A DNA stretch of 12,153 bases from a virus (lineage: Duplodnaviria > Heunggongvirae > Uroviricota > Caudoviricetes). The DNA is taken from positions 1 through 12,153 of the IMG/VR virus record IMGVR_UViG_2693429719_000002; one strand, 5' to 3'. Below, in pieces: positions 1-12,064 of the stretch (position 1 is the stretch's first letter; each line of letters begins with the position of its first letter). The notes under the pieces are model-generated. The model saw only the letters and a program-made list of their open reading frames with translations, searched no databases and was not told the DNA's origin. The translations under genes were made by a program, and so were the position numbers.

Positions 1-314
1 TGGGCGTAATTCCGGGAAAGCTGCTCATACGAGACACCCAGCCCGGCAGCGATATACCGCAGCAGTGACTGCTCAAACACGGAGTAGCCGTTATCCGTAT
101 CCTGAGCCGTCTGCAGGTTCAGTGAGTCACCCGGCATCAGGTGCGGTACTTTTGCGCCTCCCAGCCGGACCGGCGCTGCGGCGTAATACGCGGCAATTTC
201 ACCAATCCAGCCGGTCAGCCTTTCCCGCTGCTCCTGACTGTTCGCGCCCAGAATAAAATCCATCGCTGACTGCGTATCCAGCTCACTCTCAATGGTGGCG
301 GCATACATCGCCTT
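1..314 (-). CDS. B: Lambda-type portal protein, C-terminal portion (begins ...KAMYAATIESELDTQSAMDFILGAN...); separated from its N-terminal portion by the insert; runs off the window start
   Basis: Minus-strand translation from 314 downward is open to position 1 and reads as the direct continuation of the portal sequence that stops at the right junction (SAIVKA | MYAAT...). Matches my recollection of lambda gpB; not listed in the ORF track because it touches the window edge. Confidence 0.85.
302..314. other. attL junction: core ATCGCCTT (307..314) within CATACATCGCCTT
   Basis: Same 13-mer with one mismatch occurs at 11230..11242 (CATAAATCGCCTT). The identical 8 bp at 307..314 and 11235..11242 is the likely crossover core. 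Confidence 0.7.
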
Positions 315-388
315 TATGAAAAGACAGGAAAAAATAAAATTTAAAAACAGTACATTACGAATACTCAAACCTATCGTTTAAAGGAGTC

Positions 389-410
389 GCAATACACATT
401 GCAATACACG
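389..410 (+). repeat. Tandem GCAATACAC(A) repeats near attL, putative integrase arm-type binding sites
   Basis: gcaatacacattgcaatacacg at 389..410 is nearly identical to 11084..11105 near the other end, between int and attR. Confidence 0.5.
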
Positions 411-650
411 ATTATTTCTCAGATGAGCGGCAAGCATCCAACAACTATCCGTCATAAAGCTGGTGGATGATCACGGATAAACCGTTATGGGAATCCCCAT
501 ATCGGCATCATGCCCACCAGCGTGGCGCATTTTTTTAATTTCGCGGGTTTAAAAATTTGACGAGGCTGGCGGTCCCATAAGCAATGGGGTGTAGGGATTC
601 CGATCCCCCCGGGGTATTAAACACCCACCCTATTTAAATACCGTCTTTTT

Positions 651-700
651 TGTCACTGTGTGTCACTGGTTGTCACTCTCCGTCACAGTATGTCACCATA
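651..700 (+). repeat. Five phased 10-bp repeats (TGTCACnnnn x5)
   Basis: TGTCAC/CGTCAC at 651, 661, 671, 681 and 691, exactly 10 bp apart, just downstream of the last minus-strand gene. Confidence 0.6.
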
Positions 701-702
701 AG

Positions 703-987
703 TTAACGTCGTAACCGCTCCGGCTTCTTCCACTGGTACGTAATTTTTTCTTTCTCCTGGTACATCTGCACGCGGCGACGGTATGACAACATCTCCAGAA
801 CTCTGCTCCGTATGTCGCGCATATCCACGCCGTTAAGCTCAATACCGTCACGGCGCATCACCTCAGCCACCACACGCGCGTAATTTTCGGCTATCACGCT
901 ATCCGGCTGCGTGGCCTTCTGTTTGCCTGCTGCCTGGCTGGCTCCGGTAATGCAGCGAATCATTTTGAGCATTTCGGCTTCGGTCAT
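703..987 (-). CDS. Hypothetical protein (94 aa from ATG at 987; ORF-track version starts at TTG 1017)
   Basis: ORF in track; GGAGG lies 8 nt upstream of the ATG at 987. No family recognised. Confidence 0.5.
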   Translation of the reverse strand: MTEAEMLKMIRCITGASQAAGKQKATQPDSVIAENYARVVAEVMRRDGIELNGVDMRDIRSRVLEMLSYRRRVQMYQEKEKITYQWKKPERLRR

Positions 988-1024
988 TATCATGGCCTCC
1001 GTGGTGATGGAAAACAATGCCGTA

Positions 1025-1250
1025 ATTGTGGCGGGTCCTTCCTGGAAAATGAAACACCGGGGGTAGCCATACGCGCAATTCTTAACTGTTTATGAAAATT
1101 TTTCGGGAAAAGCCAGATCCGTTCTTCTTCTCTGTAACTCATTGTTTAATGGTAAAATCATCAAAAAAAGAAAGGATCTGACAGTGGTCATTTTGGGCCA
1201 AAAATGACGTTATCAGATCCTTTCTCAGTTTTGTTCAATAATTGCGCGGC
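1025..1250 (+). other. Second cos-like segment in plus orientation: lambda-cosB-like arm with three R-site-like elements carrying CAGATCC instead of CGTTTCC, and a diverged cosN-like segment
   Basis: Plus strand 1080..1250 aligns to the remembered lambda left arm (TTTATGAAAATTTT.CGG, CGTTCTTCTTC, AAAAGAAAGGA, GACAG.G, CCTTTCTC.GTTTTTGT). The position equivalent to cosN reads CGGGGGTAGCCATACGCGC, not GGGCGGCGACCT. Confidence 0.5.
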
Positions 1251-1252
1251 TG

Positions 1253-1780
1253 TCACTCACCTTTCTGTTGCCGTAATTTCTCCGGTACGTTTCCGGTTGT
1301 TTCCATCAGATAATCGGACATCATCAGCGGGATATTTTCATCAAGTTTTGCGCATGCGTTACAGGCTCTGATAACTTCTTTTTTCAGGCCATCCAGCATA
1401 GACGGCTTCATATCGGGAAACTTCCTTATCATGACAAGTGGCAGGCTATCCATGATTGAAGAAATCTGACTCGCCAATTTTGAAAGCACGTATATACAAA
1501 ACGCTGTATCAATAACGTCGCCGCGTTCACGCTCGTTTTTAAGCTCCTGCGCCTCTGCCTGTGCTGTCAGTAATCTGATCCTGACTCGTAGGAGTTCATC
1601 ATCATCAATCTCGCCCGTTTCGTTTGTAATCTGGCTGATTGCATTGTTAACCCGATTATCTATTACACTGGCGACATCATAAAACGCCTCGCGGCCCTTA
1701 CGCTCGACGGGAATCACTCCCCACTTATCGAACGCAGTGGCGCTTACACGGCAACTTTTTGCCATGTTTTTTTTGTTCAT
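1253..1780 (-). CDS. Terminase small subunit, lambda Nu1-like (conserved C-terminal part, divergent N-terminal winged-HTH)
   Basis: C-terminal two-thirds aligns to lambda Nu1 (LLTAQAEAQELKNERERGDVIDTAFCIYVLSKLASQISSIMDSLPL... vs [46 protein letters not shown]...). N-terminus is related but substituted in the putative recognition helix. Start set at the internal ATG (MNKKN, 1780) by alignment with Nu1 MEVNKK. Confidence 0.85.
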   Translation of the reverse strand: MNKKNMAKSCRVSATAFDKWGVIPVERKGREAFYDVASVIDNRVNNAISQITNETGEIDDDELLRVRIRLLTAQAEAQELKNERERGDVIDTAFCIYVLSKLASQISSIMDSLPLVMIRKFPDMKPSMLDGLKKEVIRACNACAKLDENIPLMMSDYLMETTGNVPEKLRQQKGE

Positions 1781-1894: not shown

Positions 1895-1990
1895 CCCTTA
1901 AAATGCTCATAAATAGCGAAAACCCGCGAGGTCGCCGCCCCGTAGCCTACCGGATCGCCGGAAAGGACCCGCCAGCCAGAACGGGCCCTA
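1895..1990 (-). other. Lambda-type cos site (cosQ-like sequence, cosN, first ~22 nt of the left arm) upstream of the Nu1-like gene
   Basis: Minus strand reads GGCGGGTCCTTTCCGGCGATCCGGTAGGCTACG GGGCGGCGACCT CGCGGGTTTTCGCTATTTATGA, near-identical to the remembered lambda right end, cosN and left end. Sequence then diverges from lambda cosB (1781..1894). Confidence 0.75.
1929..1940 (-). other. cosN cohesive-end sequence GGGCGGCGACCT (minus-strand reading)
   Basis: Plus strand shows AGGTCGCCGCCC, the exact reverse complement of the lambda 12-nt cohesive end. Confidence 0.75.
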
Positions 1991-2742: not shown

Positions 2743-3789
2743 TTAGCCAATGCGAACGGTAACAAAACGATTGATGCGGGCCGGTATTGGCTGTGGTGCT
2801 GAATGTGTCTGCACATATTCAATAGCCGGATCACCAGGCACAATATAGTTTTTCGGTGCAAGTTCGGCTTTAGTCAGCCCCATTCGGATTAGCTCCGGAT
2901 CCTGAATACCGCCATAGGCGACAATCCCCTGAAGAGCCGTATTGCCAAGCACCATCAAATCAGGATCAAGGAAATGTTTTTCTGTTCCGTCCTCGTCGGT
3001 ATAACGCCCGCTGTAAACAACAATCGCAACATCGCCCATATACCCTTTAAAACTCACCGAATCACCAAGGTCTTTAAGGGCCGTTTCCAGTTCGGAATTA
3101 GAACCACGACGGGTATCCAAAGCCTCTTTTATCGCTCTGAATGAACGGTATTTCTTCCATACATTACCACCCATAATGATGATATTAGTGACGCCCTCAC
3201 TAAATTCTGCGTAGCTCTCAATATCATCATTTGGATCAAAAGTTTCTTTATCCTTACCTGACCACTCAGTACCGCCAGACTGAGTGATGATATTTTGTGG
3301 TTTTATATTCCAGTCCAGCTCATAACGTTCAATACCATCGCCCTCAATGATATTTTTCCCCGTTGTGATTGCCTGAACAGCAAGCCATTCAATACGTGCA
3401 CGAATAGCTTTAGCCTGATTTACAATCGCCTGTTTAACTTTAATATTACGCGCCCCAAAAGCATTGTATTGCTCAGGTGACACACCAGCAGGGCGCACAG
3501 CTAACTTATTTGGATCAATGCTGCTTTTCGGCTTCATATAACCTGGACGAATTGTTTTTGATTCGTATCCCTCATCTCGTGAAACTTTACTGCCCACCAT
3601 AGGAGAGCAAAACGCCGCGATCGGGATATTTGGATCGTCGATCGTATCAAGAATAATGTCTCTCGATTCAAACATTACCGAGCGAGTGAAAAACAAACTG
3701 GTAAACAACGCATTTAATTTTTTTTGCACATCTTCAGCATTAGCCACCTGCACAAGCTGTGTAGGCGAATATAAATCAACCATACTCAT
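2743..3789 (-). CDS. Major capsid protein, lambda gpE family
   Basis: Strong similarity to lambda gpE (NIITQSGGTEWSGKDKETFDPNDDIESYA vs NITQSGGTEWSKRDKSTYDPTDDIEAYA; LDTRRGSNSELETALKDLG; GDVAIVVYSG; MVLGNT). Start trimmed to MSMVDLY (3789), AAGAGG RBS adjacent; the ATG at 3783 is an alternative. Confidence 0.9.
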   Translation of the reverse strand: MSMVDLYSPTQLVQVANAEDVQKKLNALFTSLFFTRSVMFESRDIILDTIDDPNIPIAAFCSPMVGSKVSRDEGYESKTIRPGYMKPKSSIDPNKLAVRPAGVSPEQYNAFGARNIKVKQAIVNQAKAIRARIEWLAVQAITTGKNIIEGDGIERYELDWNIKPQNIITQSGGTEWSGKDKETFDPNDDIESYAEFSEGVTNIIIMGGNVWKKYRSFRAIKEALDTRRGSNSELETALKDLGDSVSFKGYMGDVAIVVYSGRYTDEDGTEKHFLDPDLMVLGNTALQGIVAYGGIQDPELIRMGLTKAELAPKNYIVPGDPAIEYVQTHSAPQPIPARINRFVTVRIG

Positions 3790-3954
3790 CCTCTTTACAT
3801 TCATTACAAATAATTGTGAATATATTCTATTACCGATGTCTGCTATGCGAATACATGCAACCAAGTGCAATGTTGTATAAAATATGCCGTAACAACTTCA
3901 GTGCTGATAATTCGTGTTAATGTATTTACTTCCTTTGGTCGGGATTTATGTAGC

Positions 3955-4000: not shown

Positions 4001-4423
4001 TTAAAACGGTATATTATCGCCGTACGGATCATCATTCCCCGACTGTTGTTTTGCCCTGTTCAGTGCGTCAGTGGCCTGCCCCTGCTGGCCTTTTTTGCCG
4101 CCCGGTCGCGCCGTTCGCGCACTGATTACGCTGTCTGCGATAACCTGCCAGCCCCGCCGCGTTTCGCCGTTCTGGCCTGTCCACTGGCTTACCTGCATGT
4201 TACCCGCCACGCTCACCAGTTCGCCTTTGTGGTGTCTGGCCAGTGCGTCAGCCTGTCTGCCAAACGCCAGGACGGATAACCACATCGTCGCCGTTCCGTC
4301 ATCTGCCTGGCTGCACGGCAGGGGAACCGCCATACTCGCCATCGCCATTTGTGTCCCTTTGCTGGTGGTCTTTAACTGCGGGTCAGCCACCAGCCGCCCG
4401 TAAGCCGCTATCTGTGCTGTCAT
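4001..4423 (-). CDS. ssb: Single-stranded DNA-binding protein (SSB-like)
   Basis: OB-fold region similar to E. coli SSB (WLSVLAFGRQADALARH..GELVSVAGNMQVSQWTGQNGETR vs [43 protein letters not shown]). Acidic C-terminal tail ends ...DDPYGDNIPF, like DDDIPF. Confidence 0.8.
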   Translation of the reverse strand: MTAQIAAYGRLVADPQLKTTSKGTQMAMASMAVPLPCSQADDGTATMWLSVLAFGRQADALARHHKGELVSVAGNMQVSQWTGQNGETRRGWQVIADSVISARTARPGGKKGQQGQATDALNRAKQQSGNDDPYGDNIPF

Positions 4424-4699: not shown

Positions 4700-4945
4700 G
4701 CATTTTAACCCTTCACCTGTTCACCTTTTGCGATTTTCCCTTTTTATTCATGATGTTAAGGGGTGAACAGTTTCACAAAAACTATTCACCAACTGTTCAC
4801 CACTGTTCACCCTTAAAGCTCAATAAATAATCAAAAAGGTGAACAGTGAATAGTTTGGTGAACAGTTCACAAATAACTGTTCACCCTATAATGTACTGAT
4901 ATAAAAGACATTTATGACAGGGTGAACAGTGGTGAACAGTTATTC
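4700..4945. repeat. Iteron array (about 10 copies of GGTGAACAG / CTGTTCACC in both orientations) in an AT-rich region; putative origin of replication
   Basis: Copies at about 4716, 4762, 4782, 4792, 4803, 4838, 4857, 4878, 4921 and 4931, immediately downstream of the primase-helicase gene. Confidence 0.65.
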
Positions 4946-4952
4946 CATAAGT

Positions 4953-6758
4953 TTAATTTTTTCCATCGTCATTTGTGACCGATGTACATGATGGCATCCA
5001 GTCTTCTGAATCCTCTGTCAGGGTCACATTTGAACGCAAACCGTGCTTCGTTTTCCGTTTCATATACTCCCTGCCATATTCCGCCATTGCCCCCGGCATA
5101 TCTTTACCGAAGCGCGTCAGTGTTACAGGTTTACCGAATCCGTGTGCCCTCATATATGCCAGATAGGCGTGATAAAGATACCTGCGCGGACTGAACGGAA
5201 TAATTTCGGCATTACCCACTAACAGACCATCACACATTACCGACGACATGAGATAGCCGCAGAAGTCCACCAGCGAATCGCCCTCGCGTTTTATCACCAG
5301 AGCTTCTTCTGATTTCTGCTGCTCATACAGCAGGCGTTTAGCTTCGTCCTGGTCAGAAAAACGAGTAAGCAGGTGGCGAATCACAACCGCCAGCTCTCCT
5401 TCTATTTTTTCTGCCAGCATGGGGTCGCGTTCGTTTTCCGGTACAACCTCCGAAAAATTGAATATCACCCGACGACGTGAGATCCCCCCGCTGCGGTCAC
5501 TGAATGACATGGCGTTATTGTTCACCGCCAGCACGACCGCCTGAATGCGTGTTGAGTAGGGAGCTTTATGTTTCGGGTCAATTGCCACCTTGTCACCGCC
5601 TGTAATGGCCTTAATTCCTGCACCATCACCAGCGTAGCGGGTCATATCCGGCATGATAATCAGCGAAAAGCCAACCACTAACGCGCGTTCCCTGGCATCT
5701 TCCAGCGCCTTCATGCTTGCCGACACCGTGTTGGCCTTACCCGCCAGCATGGTGCAAATCTCCGCCATTACGCTTTTACCGCTTCCACCCGGCCCCGTTA
5801 CCTCAAGAAATAACTGCCAGTCGTATCGGTTCGCCAGCACCATGAATAACGCCGCCAGTACGCGATCCGCTTTACGGTCATTCTCTGCCACCGAACGGCG
5901 CAACCATTTCCAGAAATTCGGCGCATGCGTTGCCAGCGTTTCCCCCTCTGCTGGTGGGCTGAACGGTAATTCACTGGCAATTAACAGCCAGTCGTTTTTG
6001 TCATGCTCCCGAAAATCGCCTGTCCGGGTATCAAAAACACCGTTACTGAATCCAATCAGGTTACGGGCGGTATTTCCCATTACGGGCAAACTTAACTTCA
6101 TGGTATCGACCGCCGATTTGATGGCGTTCTGCGAATAACTGATCTCCGCATCAATAAAAATCTGCGCCATAGCCCGCTGTAACTCTTTATCCTGTACCGG
6201 CTCCCATACAACGCCGTTGTAGTGGTGAACTGTGTCAGAGTCCGCATTGATTGCCAGTTCACCGCCATAATGGGCCAGGAGAACTTCGCCGCGCTGGCTT
6301 GCTCCCATCTGGTTAAGCGCCAGTGGTGCGGCGCTGTCTTCTGTTTTTTTCTTAACAGGAAGCTGAATAACCAGACCATCAGAAAGATTCTGGCGCTCAC
6401 GCTCCAGATATTCGCGCCACTCCTCCCGCTTCTGGCTGTGCATTCCCTCAGGGTAATAATTCGCATCCCGTACACCTGCCGCCGCCAGCTTTTGCCCGAT
6501 GGCATTAATATTTGACGGCTTGATGTGGCCTGCCTTGTACAGCCGGACACAATAGCGACCATCGTCGATAATTTTCAGGTCTGCCAGTTCGTCAAGCTGG
6601 CTGTCTCCCAGCCATACAGGCGGAACATTGTCACCAGCAAGTCGCCCGTCCTGCTCCTGCCATTGTTTCGCGTGCGCCCAGGCATCACTACCCGCAAAAA
6701 TAATGACTTCGGTCATTTTGTCGTGCGGCTGTTTTTTTAAGTTCGGTGCCAGTTTCAT
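4953..6758 (-). CDS. Primase-helicase / replication initiator with P-loop NTPase domain
   Basis: 601-aa ORF with Walker A motif (EVTGPGGSGKSVMAEICTML) and an N-terminal primase-like region. Usual position for a satellite replication protein, followed by iterons. Confidence 0.85.
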   Translation of the reverse strand: MKLAPNLKKQPHDKMTEVIIFAGSDAWAHAKQWQEQDGRLAGDNVPPVWLGDSQLDELADLKIIDDGRYCVRLYKAGHIKPSNINAIGQKLAAAGVRDANYYPEGMHSQKREEWREYLERERQNLSDGLVIQLPVKKKTEDSAAPLALNQMGASQRGEVLLAHYGGELAINADSDTVHHYNGVVWEPVQDKELQRAMAQIFIDAEISYSQNAIKSAVDTMKLSLPVMGNTARNLIGFSNGVFDTRTGDFREHDKNDWLLIASELPFSPPAEGETLATHAPNFWKWLRRSVAENDRKADRVLAALFMVLANRYDWQLFLEVTGPGGSGKSVMAEICTMLAGKANTVSASMKALEDARERALVVGFSLIIMPDMTRYAGDGAGIKAITGGDKVAIDPKHKAPYSTRIQAVVLAVNNNAMSFSDRSGGISRRRVIFNFSEVVPENERDPMLAEKIEGELAVVIRHLLTRFSDQDEAKRLLYEQQKSEEALVIKREGDSLVDFCGYLMSSVMCDGLLVGNAEIIPFSPRRYLYHAYLAYMRAHGFGKPVTLTRFGKDMPGAMAEYGREYMKRKTKHGLRSNVTLTEDSEDWMPSCTSVTNDDGKN

Positions 6759-8898: not shown

Positions 8899-9477
8899 TT
8901 ACTGAATACGCTCACCAAAGTAAAACTCAGGCTGATATTCACGTATCAGCCTTTTTTCTTCTTCCTCCAGCTCACGCTTTTTGCGCTTACATGCCTGTAG
9001 CTCCCTCCCCTTCTCGCTGGCACTTATCCGGTATTGCTCTTTGCGGCGGGAAAAATCCTGTAATGCGCCCCACGGGATACCATAAGCCCCCGTTTTTCTG
9101 ATACCCGGTATCACATTTCTGAATACCCAATTACTGAAACTATGAGCAAATGTGCCAGGCGTCATTGCTTTGCGGCTACGGGCTATTAGTTTGTAGAAAC
9201 CTGACTCAGAGATAATGCTCATATTCTGATTTCCTCCGGGGGTGTAAGTTAAATTTACTCCCTTTTCATCATCATCAAGCATCTGCAACGCCGTACGCGA
9301 ATTGGTCAGTTCCAGCGCAGCGCAGACATCCTTTGCAACAAACCACGGATCGCCGTTCAGATACACCACGCGAACGTTCACACCATCAAAGCGCAGAACG
9401 ACGAGATCACGAATATCGCAGAATTTTTTCACTGGACGAGCGTACCCCTTGCCCGTCACGGCAATATTTTTATTCAT
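8899..9477 (-). CDS. Bro-N domain protein (putative antirepressor-like)
   Basis: Bro-N signature read by eye: VRVVYLNGDPWFVAKDVCAALEL...SESGFYKLIARSRKAM...FSNWVFRNVIPGIRKTGAY. Confidence 0.8.
   Translation of the reverse strand: MNKNIAVTGKGYARPVKKFCDIRDLVVLRFDGVNVRVVYLNGDPWFVAKDVCAALELTNSRTALQMLDDDEKGVNLTYTPGGNQNMSIISESGFYKLIARSRKAMTPGTFAHSFSNWVFRNVIPGIRKTGAYGIPWGALQDFSRRKEQYRISASEKGRELQACKRKKRELEEEEKRLIREYQPEFYFGERIQ
8929..8958 (+). terminator. Plus-strand hairpin + T6 inside the 3' end of the Bro-N coding region (antisense)
   Basis: AGGCTGATA-TTCACG-TATCAGCCT followed by TTTTTT; a TATAAT at 8878..8883 lies upstream. Confidence 0.4.
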
Positions 9478-9533: not shown

Positions 9534-9791
9534 TTATTGCTGTTTTGTTTTTCCAGGTTTCCATCCAGGATGCCACTCACCACGGATCCACGCCTGAACC
9601 TCTGAAAGTCGATAGCCTGCCGCACGTTCGCCGATCTTGATACGTCGCGGGAATTTACCTGCCTGCTCCATTTTCCAGCGTGTTGAGTTTGCCAGCGTGG
9701 TAAGTGCTATGCATTCTTTTTCACGAATGAACCGATCAATGTCCTTCATTGCGCGCAAATCGTTTTCATCCACAAGAGAATAAATTGTCAT
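9534..9791 (-). CDS. alpA: AlpA-family transcriptional regulator / excisionase-like protein
   Basis: 85-aa HTH protein directly downstream of int (start 1 nt after the int stop); GAGGTGG RBS. Confidence 0.8.
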   Translation of the reverse strand: MTIYSLVDENDLRAMKDIDRFIREKECIALTTLANSTRWKMEQAGKFPRRIKIGERAAGYRLSEVQAWIRGEWHPGWKPGKTKQQ

Positions 9792-9792
9792 A

Positions 9793-11034
9793 TCACACCA
9801 CCTCTTTATTAAGCTCGATAACGTTGTTGTTAAATCCTGCTATCGTATTAAGGTAATTAACCCACATATTAAGCACCTCAAGTTTTTTCTTTATATGCCT
9901 GCTTTTATTGTAAACACCAGCAACCCCTTTCACTTTATGACCCAAAAGAAGTTCGACAATATAAGGATCCGCCCCCATATCATTAAGCATTGTGGAAAAT
10001 GTGCGCCTGAAATCATGTATGCACCACAAGCCATTAGTATCATGACCAAGACGCCTGCATATTCTGTTTGCAGCCCCTGTTATTGTCGCCCTTTGCAAAG
10101 CACAACCGACAACATAACCGCGATTCTTTGTTTCTGCGTAAAGATTAACGATCCATTGTTTTATACCGTCAGGAACGGGCCTTACTATGGCCTCACCGTT
10201 TTTGCTGTGCTCTTTTGGGACTGTCCATACCCAGTTTTTTAAATCCCATTCTTCCCAGGTGGATAACCTCGCCTCCTGCTGTCGACAACCAAACGCCAGG
10301 CATATCACCATAATTCTTCGGTTATGTATCGATGAGAGAGTAAGCAAATTATTTCCATAAGCATACGACCATACATCAGCAGTTTCATTGATGCTAAGAA
10401 CGCGATCCCGTATACCGGACGAGCGGCCTACATAACTTACATTAATGTCTCCAAATGGATCGCAAGCGATATATTGCCTGACGCGACAAAACCGCAACGC
10501 CTGTTTAATATCAAGAAAAATTGCACCAGACATAACAGGCGCATTTTTTTTAATCCTGTCAAAGACGGTAAGCCATGTGTGTAATTTGCACTGTTCTATG
10601 GCCATATCGCCGATATAGGGGAATATATGCTTTTCAAATCGTTTTATTAAATATTCATGCTCTTTTCTGGCTGTTGTGGCGTGATTGTCGTACCAGTAAA
10701 ACAGCGCATCCCTTACGGTCACTGGTTGCATAGTTTTTTCGGCAGCAAGTTTTATTTGCCTGCGGGGGTCCAGATTTTCAGCCAGCCATTCACGGCACTG
10801 ATCACGCATGCGCCTGGCAGTTGCAAGAGACATGTCAGGATAGCGACCAAGTGTAAGCCATACCGGAGGGGATTTCCTGCCACCAAGACGATAGTAAAAA
10901 ACAAAGCTTATCCCCCCGACCATGCTTACACGCACAGACAGCCCGCGACCATCCGCTATTGTTTTTTGTTTGTCCTGTCGTTTTCCGGCAAGACTCTTTA
11001 ACAGTTTGTCGCTGAGTTTGTTTTCAATAGCCAT
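9793..11034 (-). CDS. int: Tyrosine-type site-specific integrase (P4-like)
   Basis: 413 aa; C-terminal catalytic motifs HDFRRTF ... LLGHKVKGVAGVYNKS (H-x-x-R ... Y); sits next to the element end. Confidence 0.95.
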   Translation of the reverse strand: MAIENKLSDKLLKSLAGKRQDKQKTIADGRGLSVRVSMVGGISFVFYYRLGGRKSPPVWLTLGRYPDMSLATARRMRDQCREWLAENLDPRRQIKLAAEKTMQPVTVRDALFYWYDNHATTARKEHEYLIKRFEKHIFPYIGDMAIEQCKLHTWLTVFDRIKKNAPVMSGAIFLDIKQALRFCRVRQYIACDPFGDINVSYVGRSSGIRDRVLSINETADVWSYAYGNNLLTLSSIHNRRIMVICLAFGCRQQEARLSTWEEWDLKNWVWTVPKEHSKNGEAIVRPVPDGIKQWIVNLYAETKNRGYVVGCALQRATITGAANRICRRLGHDTNGLWCIHDFRRTFSTMLNDMGADPYIVELLLGHKVKGVAGVYNKSRHIKKKLEVLNMWVNYLNTIAGFNNNVIELNKEVV

Positions 11035-11052: not shown

Positions 11053-11106
11053 TTGCAATACACACCCATCCCGATCGCCAATTTGCAATACACATTGCAA
11101 TACACA
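11053..11106 (+). repeat. Three TTGCAATACACA repeats between int and attR, putative arm-type integrase sites / int promoter region
   Basis: Copies at 11053, 11083 and 11095; the last two form the same 22-mer found at 389..410. Confidence 0.5.
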
Positions 11107-11182
11107 AAACCGCGAAAAACCGGAATAGTGGTGAACGGTCATCAAAAGTATGGAAAACGACATTCCAGACGCAGCAAGGGTT

Positions 11183-12064
11183 TTAGTGGAGTTGGCGAAC
11201 GATGCGGACAACTACGGTGAGATGATAGACATAAATCGCCTTCACAATGGCGCTCTGCAGCTGCGTGTTCTGCAGCGTGTCGAGCATCTTCATCTGCTCC
11301 ATCACGCTGTAAAACACATTTGCACCGCGGGTCTGCCCGTCCTCCACGGGTTCAAAAACGTGAATGAACGAGGTGCGCCCGCCGGGTAACTCACGGGGCA
11401 TCCATGTCCATTTCTGCGGCATCCAGCCAGGATACCCGTCCTCGCTGACGTAATATCCCAGCGCCGCGCCGCTGTCATTAATCTGCACACCGGCACGGCA
11501 GTTCCGGCTGTCGCCGGTATTGTTCGGGTTGCTGATACGCTTCGGGCTGACCATCCGGAACTGTGTCCGGAACAGTCGCGAGGGACTGGTATCCCAGGTG
11601 GCCTGAACGAACAGTTCACCGTTAAAGGCGTGCATGGCCACACCTTCCCGAATCATCATGGTAAACGTGCGTTTTCGCTCAACGTCAATGCAGCAGCAGT
11701 CATCCTCGGCAAACTCTTTCCATGCCGCTTCAACCTCGCGGGAAAAGGCACGGGCTTCTTCCTCCCCGATGCCCAGATAGCGCCAGCTTGGGCGATGACT
11801 GAGCCGGAAAAAAGATCCGACGATATGATCCTGATGCAGCTGGATGGCGTTGGCGGCATAGCCGTTATTGCGTACCAGATCGTCTGCGCGGGCATTGCCA
11901 CGGGTAAAGTTGGGCAACAGGGCTGCATCCACACTTTCACCCGGTGGGTTCCACGCCCGCAACTGCCCTCCAAATCCGCTGCCACCGCCGTGATAACCGG
12001 CATATTCGCGCAGCGATGTCATGCCGTCCGGCCCCAGAAGGGTGGGAATGGTGGACGTTTTCAT
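11183..12064 (-). CDS. B: Lambda-type portal protein, N-terminal portion; ends in 17 element-derived codons after ...SAIVKA
   Basis: 293-aa ORF starting [34 protein letters not shown], near-identical to remembered lambda gpB. Homology stops at the core, then reads [17 protein letters not shown] and terminates. Confidence 0.9.
11230..11242. other. attR junction: core ATCGCCTT (11235..11242) within CATAAATCGCCTT
   Basis: Direct repeat of 302..314 with one mismatch at the fifth base. Confidence 0.7.

What the first reader, a model, noticed from the sequence alone, without database searches (positions are those of the whole stretch)
651..700. Five helically phased TGTCAC repeats at the left end of the island
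A hexamer repeated five times at exact 10-bp spacing places all copies on one face of the helix, which suggests cooperative protein binding. It is not explained by any annotated feature. Candidates are a binding array for one of the two AlpA-like proteins, a small-terminase recognition site, or a partition-like site.
Basis: seen in the sequence. Interest (0 to 1): 0.5.

Follow-up and report, generated by a model that had tools for sequence, protein, structure and literature searches.

The report
Phage-origin-like repeat array in a satellite island
Five GTCAC repeats, one per DNA turn, near the end of a phage-parasitic island are a real, conserved, movable DNA element that matches none of the island's own proteins but closely resembles the replication-origin repeats of a very common family of lambda-like phages, so it may be a landing pad or decoy for a helper phage's replication initiator.

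Summary
Positions 651-700 carry five GTCAC cores at exactly 10-bp spacing (four TGTCAC and one CGTCAC). No shuffle reproduced even three phased copies.

The window is a helper-embedded PICI inserted in a lambda-type portal gene. The array lies about 335 bp inside its left end.

- The same array occurs in PICIs with unrelated integrases, replicases and packaging modules.
- It is absent from a close relative with 98-99% identical Int and both AlpA-like proteins and a 91% identical Rpp (the Nu1-like 'small terminase').
- The likely Int arm sites are a different, published doubled motif.

The only other enterobacterial phage context I found for phased GTCAC clusters is inside the O-position 'replisome organizer' gene of lambdoid phages. 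That gene type is present in 41% of complete E. coli genomes and also occurs in Aeromonas and Pseudomonas phages. Some PICI arrays share the flanks, the 10-10-11 spacing and 15-16-mers with those phage clusters.

Best reading (about 0.4): a stand-alone iteron cluster bound by a helper phage initiator, acting as a decoy or as a recruitment site.

Co-occurrence evidence is weak. Two of three array-bearing embedded islands sit in such helpers, and the genome-level test was neutral. Binding is untested.

The parts
651..700 (+). The array: five 10-bp units (TGTCACtgtg, TGTCACtggt, TGTCACtctc, CGTCACagta, TGTCACcata), with GTCAC cores at 652, 662, 672, 682 and 692.
   Evidence: Conserved with 4 or 5 units in 281 of 5426 complete E. 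coli genomes. Core columns vary less than spacer columns.
612..650 (+). Conserved left border of the array: AT-rich inverted repeat GGTATTAAA-N11-TTTAAATACC, then CCGTC and a run of six T. The CCGTCTTTTT part accompanies every window-type array.
   Evidence: Not predicted as a stable RNA hairpin or terminator.
703..990 (-). Last gene of the island (94-95 aa, PHROG 1561, function unknown). Its stop codon is 2 bp from the array. It is usually, but not always, the array's neighbour.
   Evidence: No match in Pfam, NCBIfam or the PDB.
433..1274 (.). Exchangeable end cassette (Chi site, conserved element, array, last gene, cos1-like site). It is replaced as a block in the otherwise 97-99% identical island L206.
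306..318 (+). attL core repeat CATAcATCGCCTT (partner at 11229-11241). This marks the left boundary of the island inside a lambda-B-like portal gene.
   Evidence: The flanking portal reading frame is interrupted. Site class as in PMC10111431.
389..409 (+). Doubled motif GCAATACACATTGCAATACAC (second copy at 11085-11105, single extra copy at 11053-11064). It is the likely Int arm-type site and is not part of the array; listed to show that this role is already filled.
   Evidence: Published as tgTGTATTGCantgTGTATTGCa, 81 and 132 bp from the attP centre.

Best explanation
The array is a stand-alone cluster of iteron-type binding sites, related to the origin repeats of a widespread lambdoid-phage replication module. 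In those phages the gene at the position of lambda O ('phage replisome organizer' or DnaT-like protein, with a winged-helix N-domain) contains two clusters of GTCAC(G) repeats spaced 10-11 bp apart, and the second cluster is followed by an AT-rich stretch. I infer that this initiator coats such repeats head to tail, one monomer per helical turn. The satellite island carries one such cluster in its non-coding end region, so when a phage of this type replicates in the cell, its initiator would also load onto the island. I commit to the decoy version as the more likely outcome. The island amplifies from its own origin, and its many copies of the array then titrate or 'handcuff' the helper's initiator and damp helper replication, as extra iteron clusters do in plasmids. 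Recruiting the helper's replisome to the island is the alternative outcome. Shown here: the array is real, conserved, modular, independent of the island's own Int, AlpA, Rep and packaging proteins, and related in sequence to the phage clusters. Inferred: that the phage clusters are origin iterons, that the initiator binds them, that it binds the island's version, and what the consequence is.
For: 1. Phased GTCAC clusters lie inside the O-position gene of lambdoid phages. Cluster 1 has 4-6 copies with spacing 10,10,(10),11; cluster 2 has 3-5 copies about 229 bp downstream, followed by an AT-rich stretch (GATAAAGATACA repeats in the E. coli phages). This holds in E. coli (L014, L208, L211, L219), Aeromonas (L209) and Pseudomonas (L210). 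The cores are kept in three different reading frames.
3. This module is in 2212 of 5426 complete E. coli genomes, so it is a common potential helper type.
4. PICI arrays of the L144/L194 type share with phage cluster 1 the left flank CTGGTG, four copies at 10-10-11 spacing and the right flank TGATG. The 16-mer GTCACGGCGTGTCACT is identical in phage L211 and PICI L218, and L144-type and L002-type arrays share GTCACGGTGTGTCAC.
5. No island-encoded protein cluster tracks the array (28 loci with it against 30 without). No homologue of the initiator is encoded in the islands.
6. In two helper prophages that carry array-bearing embedded islands, the only GTCAC clusters found in the 35 kb examined of each are in the O gene. 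Their Int arm sites read CTCTGCAAAA.
7. Core positions are more conserved than spacers.
Against: 1. The genome-level test found no array-specific co-occurrence. Of array-bearing genomes, 64% have the GTCAC-type module (124/193). So do 67% of genomes that have an array-less PICI marked by the same last gene (914/1370).
2. One array-bearing embedded island (L223, strain AREA_492) sits in a prophage whose O-position gene has different repeats (TTGACCCGTCAA) and no GTCAC cluster in 39 kb. So only 2 of 3 pairs match.
3. The base after the core is G in most phage units but T, T, T, A, C in the window.
4. There is no second cluster and no clear AT-rich unwinding element, so this is not a complete origin.
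5. Neither the phage origin nor initiator binding has been shown experimentally. I found no paper describing these repeats.
6. The window's own helper replication region is not in the window and could not be retrieved.
Confidence: 0.4

Rival explanations
1. The array binds an unidentified protein that is either common to all these islands or host-encoded, for example a nucleoid-type or winged-helix factor. It organises the non-coding end region near cos and att by bending or compacting DNA, or by blocking read-out transcription. The likeness to phage iterons is convergence on a short core.
For: The array always lies in the cis-element zone of the island end, on the same strand as a cosQ-like site 328-403 bp downstream in 11 loci. 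It sits among Chi sites and other conserved elements. In array-less relatives the same place holds three copies of a hairpin plus an IHF-consensus-like site, which suggests interchangeable architectural modules. No variable island protein tracks the array. The co-occurrence tests with phage modules were neutral.
Against: No candidate protein is known. The extended identity with phage clusters (flanks, 10-10-11 spacing, shared 15-16-mers) is hard to explain by convergence. The array also occurs in capsid-forming PICIs where no lambda-type cosQ-like match was found.
Confidence: 0.25
2. The array is a functionless remnant of phage origin DNA, picked up by recombination between islands and helper prophages and spread passively with the neighbouring last gene.
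For: These islands capture helper DNA often (PMC10111431). The end region is highly mosaic. Most array copies are nearly identical, so they could reflect recent spread. Close relatives do without the array.
Against: Only the repeat cluster is retained, not the neighbouring O coding sequence. Copy number changes in whole 10-bp units. Cores are more conserved than spacers. The array is kept in islands with at least six integration sites and several gene contents.
Confidence: 0.15
3. The array is a binding site for an AlpA/Xis-type directionality factor or transcription factor of the island. Such factors typically bind head-to-tail repeats at 10-11 bp, as established for lambda Xis, P2 Cox and 186 Apl (from my own knowledge).
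For: The geometry fits this class. Every island encodes an AlpA-family protein.
Against: L206 has AlpA 98.8% and the second AlpA-like protein 99% identical but no array. The identical array accompanies AlpA proteins only 45-58% identical to the window's. The distance to the att core ranges from about 335 to about 820 bp. There is no promoter-like site next to it.
Confidence: 0.08
4. The array consists of integrase arm-type sites, the island's or the helper's. The lambda Int arm consensus C/AAGTCACTAT contains GTCACT, and the three P' sites are also adjacent at 10 bp (from my own knowledge).
For: GTCACT is present in three units. The tandem 10-bp layout resembles the lambda P' arm. The island's Int has an arm-binding domain.
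Against: The same array occurs with integrases 23-43% identical at six or more att sites and is absent with a 98% identical Int. There is no GTCAC cluster on the right arm. The published doubled TGTATTGC motif occupies both arms at fixed distances. The Int arm sites of the two GTCAC-type helpers examined read CTCTGCAAAA.
Confidence: 0.04

Closest known systems
Origin iterons inside the lambda O gene (ori-lambda), and more generally origins embedded in phage initiator genes such as SPP1 oriL in gene 38 (recalled from memory)
   Same: Several closely spaced initiator-binding repeats. The phage clusters that resemble the array lie inside the gene at the lambda O position, are followed by an AT-rich stretch, and are followed by a lambda-P-like or DnaC-like loader gene.
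   Different: Lambda iterons are 18-19-bp palindromes bound by O dimers. Here the units are 10 bp with a 5-6-bp core in direct orientation. The island's array is outside any initiator gene, is a single cluster, and has no clear unwinding element.
Extra-origin iteron clusters of plasmids that control copy number by titration or handcuffing (P1 incA, F incC; recalled from memory)
   Same: A cluster of initiator-binding repeats that is not itself an origin. This is the functional analogy for the decoy reading.
   Different: Those clusters act in cis on their own replicon. Here the cluster would sit on a satellite and act in trans on a helper phage's initiator. That has not been shown.
The PICI's own replication origin (Fillol-Salom et al. 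2018, PMC6092414)
   Same: Iteron sets in a PICI.
   Different: The known origin lies immediately 3' of the primase/rep gene, with two iteron sets flanking an AT-rich region. In this window that is 4740-4954, with TGTTCACC-type repeats. It is not at 651-700, and the array is independent of replicase type.
Doubled attP motif of helper-embedded PICIs (Tommasini, Mageeney and Williams 2023, PMC10111431)
   Same: A repeated short motif near the island ends, proposed to bind Int arm domains or AlpA.
   Different: The sequence differs (TGTATTGC), it lies on both arms at fixed distances, and it is specific to that integrase clade. The GTCAC array is not mentioned in that paper and is shared with PICIs of other integrase types.
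Rpp / cos redirection in E. coli PICIs (Fillol-Salom et al. 2019, PMC6739421)
   Same: A satellite cis-site paired with a hijacked helper protein. The window encodes an Rpp homologue flanked by two inverted cos sites.
   Different: That system concerns packaging (TerS and cosB). The array is not in cosB and occurs with unrelated packaging modules.

Membership tests
Iterons of the GTCAC-type lambdoid 'replisome organizer' origin | GTCAC core repeated head to tail | tested here: met
   Five cores in the window. Phage clusters have the same core.
Iterons of the GTCAC-type lambdoid 'replisome organizer' origin | 10-11 bp centre-to-centre spacing, 3-6 copies per cluster | tested here: met
   Window spacing is 10,10,10,10. 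Phage spacing is 10,10,(10),11 and 10,10,(11),10.
Iterons of the GTCAC-type lambdoid 'replisome organizer' origin | G after the core (GTCACG) in most units | tested here: not met
   The window has T, T, T, A, C. Related PICI arrays (L002, L217, L218 and L144 types) do have G in some or all units.
Iterons of the GTCAC-type lambdoid 'replisome organizer' origin | Located inside the initiator gene, with a second cluster about 229 bp away and an AT-rich stretch | tested here: not met
   The array is a single cluster in non-coding DNA. No initiator homologue is found in the islands. It is therefore not filed as an origin, only as a related stand-alone cluster.
Iterons of the GTCAC-type lambdoid 'replisome organizer' origin | Bound by the initiator's N-terminal winged-helix domain | not testable with these tools
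   The fold is predicted as a winged helix. Binding needs EMSA or ChIP.
Integrase arm-type sites | Lie at fixed short distances from the att core, usually on both arms | tested here: not met
   About 335 bp from the core in the window and about 350-820 bp in relatives. None on the right arm.
Integrase arm-type sites | Co-vary with the integrase | tested here: not met
   The same array occurs with Int 23-43% identical and is absent with Int 98% identical.
cosB / small-terminase (gpNu1, Rpp) recognition sites | Adjacent to cosN on the cosB side, and co-vary with TerS/Rpp | tested here: not met
   The array is 336 bp upstream of the cosQ-like site. It is present in capsid-forming PICIs with P27-type TerS and no lambda-type cosQ-like match, and absent in L206 with a 91% identical Rpp.
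Excisionase / AlpA (RDF) binding arrays | Head-to-tail repeats at about one helical turn | tested here: met
Excisionase / AlpA (RDF) binding arrays | Presence tied to the cognate RDF, and position between core and arm sites or at a regulated promoter | tested here: not met
   Absent from a relative with 98.8% and 99% identical AlpA proteins. It lies outside the core-to-arm interval. There is no promoter-like site beside it.
Iterons of the island's own replicon | Next to the rep/primase gene, and specific to the replicase type | tested here: not met
   The island's own origin is at 4740-4954. The array occurs with P4-alpha-like, RepA-helicase and DUF927 replicases.
Plasmid-type partition centromere | Linked genes for a ParA/ParM motor and a centromere-binding protein | tested here: not met
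   None of the 19 window ORFs scanned against Pfam or PHROGs matched a partition protein.

The most novel reading that the evidence does not exclude
Phage satellites of E. coli carry a portable cluster of helper-phage origin repeats. With it they capture the replication initiator of the commonest lambdoid replication module. This would be a purely cis-acting piracy or interference device aimed at helper DNA replication, exchangeable between island lineages like a cassette.
Probability: 0.35. Interest if true: 0.75.

Novelty: new variant of a known kind. Interest (0 to 1): 0.55.

Why it matters
Known interference and piracy by Gram-negative PICIs acts on packaging (Rpp and cos) and on capsids. 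A satellite-borne copy of helper origin repeats would add helper replication as a target, and it would need no satellite protein at all.

The idea can be tested with simple experiments: EMSA, plating of phages on a strain with the array on a plasmid, and deletion of the array.

Two by-products are useful in themselves. The likely origin of a replication module present in 41% of complete E. coli genomes appears to be undescribed. And the non-coding end of PICIs turns out to be a zone of exchangeable cis-elements: Chi sites, IHF-like repeats, cos sites and this array.

If the array binds something else, it is still an unannotated conserved element present in about 5% of E. coli genomes.

Tried and rejected
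- Int arm sites, AlpA sites, TerS sites, own-replicon iterons and a partition site were each rejected on comparative grounds (see the membership tests).
- RNA readings: Rfam found nothing at 400-1000. Folds of the array and its left border are no better than shuffles (z between -0.3 and +1.7). The pattern scan found no terminator at the T-run.
- Helper Int decoy: the arm sites of the two GTCAC-type helpers are CTCTGCAAAA.
- The last gene's product as the binder: it is present in 1563 genomes against about 193-281 with the array, and its alleles next to arrays range from 78 to 99% identity.
- Protein-cluster association scan: no positive hit of note. The only strong signals were an antisense ORF in the ssb region and the absence of a PerC-like gene.
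- Do array-less embedded islands carry their own helper's iterons instead? They do not.
It did yield the key lead, L014.
- The phage collection holds no homologue of the last gene or of the array region.
- Genome-level co-occurrence gave an apparent enrichment (OR 2.7). It disappeared when compared with PICI-bearing genomes without the array.
- MatP/matS (GTGACRNYGTCAC), CRP and PhoB/OmpR-type boxes were considered from memory. They were dropped because their orientation or period does not fit.

Full report
OBSERVATION. Positions 651-700 read TGTCACtgtg TGTCACtggt TGTCACtctc CGTCACagta TGTCACcata. The GTCAC cores start at 652, 662, 672, 682 and 692, and Tandem Repeats Finder reports period 10. 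Four units are TGTCAC and one is CGTCAC. GTCAC is not enriched in the window overall (24 against 18 expected). Three phased copies, even allowing one mismatch, never arose in 200 shuffles.

CONTEXT. The window is a roughly 10.9-kb island inserted in a lambda-B-type portal gene. The portal reading frame runs on the minus strand through 1-318 and resumes at about 11241-12064, with a core repeat CATA(c/a)ATCGCCTT at 306-318 and 11229-11241. All main genes are on the minus strand:

| Coordinates | Gene |
|---|---|
| 9793-11034 | Int, with arm-binding domain |
| 9534-9791 | AlpA |
| 8899-9477 | Bro-N protein |
| 4953-6758 | D5/P4-alpha-like primase-helicase |
| 4001-4423 | SSB |
| 2743-3870 | Lambda-E-like capsid protein |
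| 2392-2733 | D-like decoration protein |
| 1997-2380 | Second AlpA-like protein (127 aa) |
| 1253-1804 | Nu1-like protein |
| 703-990 | 94-aa protein of unknown function (PHROG 1561) |

- This is a helper-embedded PICI as described by Tommasini et al. (PMC10111431).
- Their 'doubled motif' is present at 389-409 and 11085-11105, at the published distances from the core. That paper does not mention TGTCAC.
- The Nu1-like protein corresponds to Rpp of Fillol-Salom et al. 2019.
- As in EcCICFT073, Rpp is flanked by two inverted cos sites. One has a canonical cosN, GGGCGGCGACCT, at 1940-1929 on the minus strand. The other is cos-like, on the plus strand at 1033-1225, with a divergent cosN position and lambda-like R repeats.
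- The island's own origin is the iteron region 3' of the primase gene at 4740-4954, as PICI origins are described.

DISTRIBUTION. The array, with four or five units differing by whole 10-bp steps, occurs in 281 of 5426 complete E. coli genomes. Array-bearing islands were found at these sites:

| Site |
|---|
| thiM |
| yejO/tRNA-Pro |
| yifB |
| smrA |
| clpS |
| ydgV region |
| Inside prophage late genes |

- These islands have integrases only 23-43% identical to the window's.
- They carry three different replicase types.
- They carry several packaging and capsid modules: lambda E/D plus Rpp, HK97-type capsid-forming PICIs with P27 TerS, TerL and HNH, and ClpP-capsid fusions.
- Many islands with the same last gene lack the array. 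They have other elements there instead, often three copies of a hairpin plus an IHF-consensus-like site.

The key comparison is the E. coli island L206.
- It matches the window at 97-99% over most of its length. Int is 98% identical, AlpA 98.8%, the second AlpA-like protein 99%, capsid and decoration proteins 100%, SSB 99%, Rpp 91%, and att region 1-432 is 98.8% identical. The primase region is diverged (primase 48%).
- Window segment 433-1274 is replaced and there is no array.
- No cluster of island proteins tracks the array.

The array is therefore a movable cis-element whose partner is none of the island's variable proteins. None of the 19 ORFs scanned against Pfam or PHROGs matched a partition protein.

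THE LEAD. A collection-wide pattern scan returned an E. albertii prophage, L014. There GTCAC(G) repeats at 10-bp spacing form two clusters inside a 352-aa gene that sits where lambda O sits: after cI, cro and cII-like genes and before a lambda-P homologue.
- The same N-terminal domain, with the same two clusters, recurs in E. coli phage vB_EcoS-640R1 (annotated 'DNA replication protein O'), in an Aeromonas phage and in Pseudomonas phages. Cluster 1 has spacing 10,10,11. Cluster 2 lies 228-229 bp further on and is followed by an AT-rich stretch.
- The cores are conserved although they fall in three reading frames.
- The N-domain models as a winged helix similar to CRP-type DNA-binding domains, the DnaD N-domain and a plasmid initiator.
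- By analogy with ori-lambda lying within O, these are most likely the origin iterons of that replicon. I found no paper describing them.
- The module is very common: 2212 of 5426 genomes.

RELATEDNESS OF ISLAND AND PHAGE REPEATS. A second kind of PICI array (L144, L145, L147, L148, L194, L196) aligns with phage cluster 1, including the left flank CTGGTG, four copies at 10-10-11 spacing and the right flank TGATG. It lies in the same non-coding module as the window-type array.
- That module shares the conserved 'GGCGGGCGGTCCC...AGGGATTT-GATCC' element, several Chi sites and a cosQ-like site about 400 bp downstream.
- Intermediates link the types. GTCACGGTGTGTCAC is shared by L144-type and L002-type arrays. 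GTCACGGCGTGTCACT is identical in the phage gene (L211) and in PICI L218.
- Among 13 variants of the window-type array, core columns vary less than spacer columns (3/25 against 12/25, p=0.012).

CO-OCCURRENCE TESTS. The results are mixed.
- Embedded islands and their host prophages:

| Island | Host prophage | O-position gene of host |
|---|---|---|
| L001, array-bearing | ompW Stx2a prophage, strain SA53-3 | 6+5 GTCAC repeats |
| L214, array-bearing | ompW prophage, strain TUM9812 | 4+5 GTCAC repeats |
| L223, array-bearing | potC prophage, strain AREA_492 | Different repeats; no GTCAC cluster in 39 kb |
| L206 / L212, array-less | DLP12-like prophages | Different iterons |

- Genome level, by union counting with chimeric queries. 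Of 193 array-bearing genomes, 124 have the module (64% against 40% elsewhere; OR 2.7, p=2e-11). But genomes with an array-less PICI have it just as often, 914 of 1370 or 67%.
- There is therefore no array-specific association with resident prophages. Satellites can be mobilised by infecting phages, and lambdoid genomes are mosaic, so this does not refute the idea. It gives no support either.

MECHANISM. The best-supported reading is a stand-alone iteron cluster for a helper phage's winged-helix initiator. There is no second cluster, no clear unwinding element and no need for a second origin, so I favour titration or handcuffing of the initiator by the amplified island, in the manner of plasmid extra-origin iteron clusters. 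Recruitment of helper replication is the alternative. Every step from 'the phage clusters are iterons' onward is inference. I put this reading at about 0.4.
- Rival 1: an unknown common or host protein organising the end region (0.25).
- Rival 2: a passively spread remnant of phage DNA (0.15).
- Rival 3: AlpA or Int sites (about 0.1 together).

NOVELTY. The array is not mentioned in the PICI papers I read, and I found no paper describing the phage repeats. Iteron decoys are known for plasmids and cis-site piracy is known for satellites, so this would be a new variant of known kinds rather than a new category.

Noticed in passing
window 1-318 and 11241-12064 (minus strand); core repeats at 306-318 and 11229-11241: The island interrupts a lambda-B-like portal gene of a lambdoid prophage, so it is a helper-embedded PICI. 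Fifty-nine complete E. coli genomes share this left junction, but none holds this exact island; the best relatives differ in the end cassette.
   Followed up: yes
window 389-409, 11053-11064, 11085-11105: GCAATACAC repeats: two doublets at the published distances from the att core, plus one extra single copy next to the int start. They match the 'doubled motif' of helper-embedded PICIs and are probably the Int arm sites. Other PICIs have a different doublet at the same place: AACTACACC in L004 and L005, ACTGACCACACA in L002.
   Followed up: partly
window 1929-1970 (minus strand) and 1033-1225 (plus strand): Two inverted cos-like sites flank the Rpp gene. The minus-strand site has the canonical lambda cosN, GGGCGGCGACCT. 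The plus-strand site has a cosQ-like element, only 7 of 12 matches at cosN (GGGGGTAGCCAT, 1059-1070), and three R-like repeats built on GGATCTGA rather than lambda's GGAAACGA (1114-1130, 1169-1184, 1210-1225). Which site is used for packaging is unknown.
   Followed up: partly
window 459-466 (GCTGGTGG) and 514-521 (CCACCAGC); L194 5021, 5229, 5343; L144 and others: Chi sites are dense in the non-coding end region of these islands, in both orientations. In L144/L194-type islands a Chi site lies 4 bp from the array, where the phage gene has CTGGTGAG. This may protect the linear or rolling-circle DNA against RecBCD, since no Gam homologue was among the island ORFs I annotated.
   Followed up: no
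window 560-612; L003 about 11990-12050; L194 5380-5440 (inverted); split by a roughly 350-bp insertion in L004: A conserved non-coding element GGC(G/T)GGCGGTCCC-N16-AGGGATT(C/T)CGATCCCC, with a small hairpin that has a UNCG-like loop. It occurs near the array in either orientation. There is no Rfam match and its function is unknown.
   Followed up: no
window 4740-4954 and 11123-11142: The island's own origin has GGTGAACAGTT repeats in two inverted sets. These contain TGTTCACC, which I recall as the P4 alpha type I iteron. A near-copy, GAATAGTGGTGAACGGTCAT, lies in the right att arm, reminiscent of the second cis replication region of P4.
   Followed up: no
L005 11800-12000; L206 20700-20900; L002 8090-8170: Array-less relatives carry, at the same position, two or three repeats. 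Each repeat is a hairpin whose stem sequence varies with compensating changes (CCTCAAATTGAGG, CCCCCAATGGGGG, CCTGCATTGCAGG), followed by a match to the IHF consensus (AATCAAnGGGTTAG).
   Followed up: no
window 703-990 (minus strand): The last gene (PHROG 1561, about 94 aa, basic C-terminus) is present in 1563 of 5426 complete E. coli genomes. It has no Pfam, NCBIfam or PDB match and no homologue in the phage collection, so it looks like a satellite-specific gene of unknown function.
   Followed up: partly
E. coli complete genomes: Genomes with a PICI marked by that last gene carry the GTCAC-type phage replication module twice as often as genomes without one: 1038/1563 (66%) against 1174/3863 (30%). 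This may reflect prophage-rich lineages or a real helper relationship. It has not been corrected for phylogeny.
   Followed up: partly
L014 3032-4090; L208 2507-3577; L209 1935-2852; L210 2001-2900; L211 9107-10147; L219 16565-17635: The likely origin of a very common lambdoid replication module appears to be undescribed. It consists of two GTCAC(G) repeat clusters 228-229 bp apart inside the 'replisome organizer' gene, the second followed by an AT-rich stretch. The arrangement is conserved from E. coli to Aeromonas and Pseudomonas phages, while the C-terminal half of the protein and the loader gene (P-like or DnaC-like) are swapped.
   Followed up: partly
L002 8607-8690 (plus strand) and 9130-9200 (minus strand): In the thiM island of strain ST130, two canonical lambda cos sites face each other across about 500 bp of AT-rich DNA, with no Rpp gene between them.
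   Followed up: no
L031 about 1400-1850 (Scandinavium hiltneri, 14-kb contig with coverage 1167): A plasmid-like, high-coverage contig has a T-run followed by five GGTCAC repeats at 10-12 bp and then GCCACT repeats. This looks like an origin and is unrelated to PICIs.
   Followed up: no
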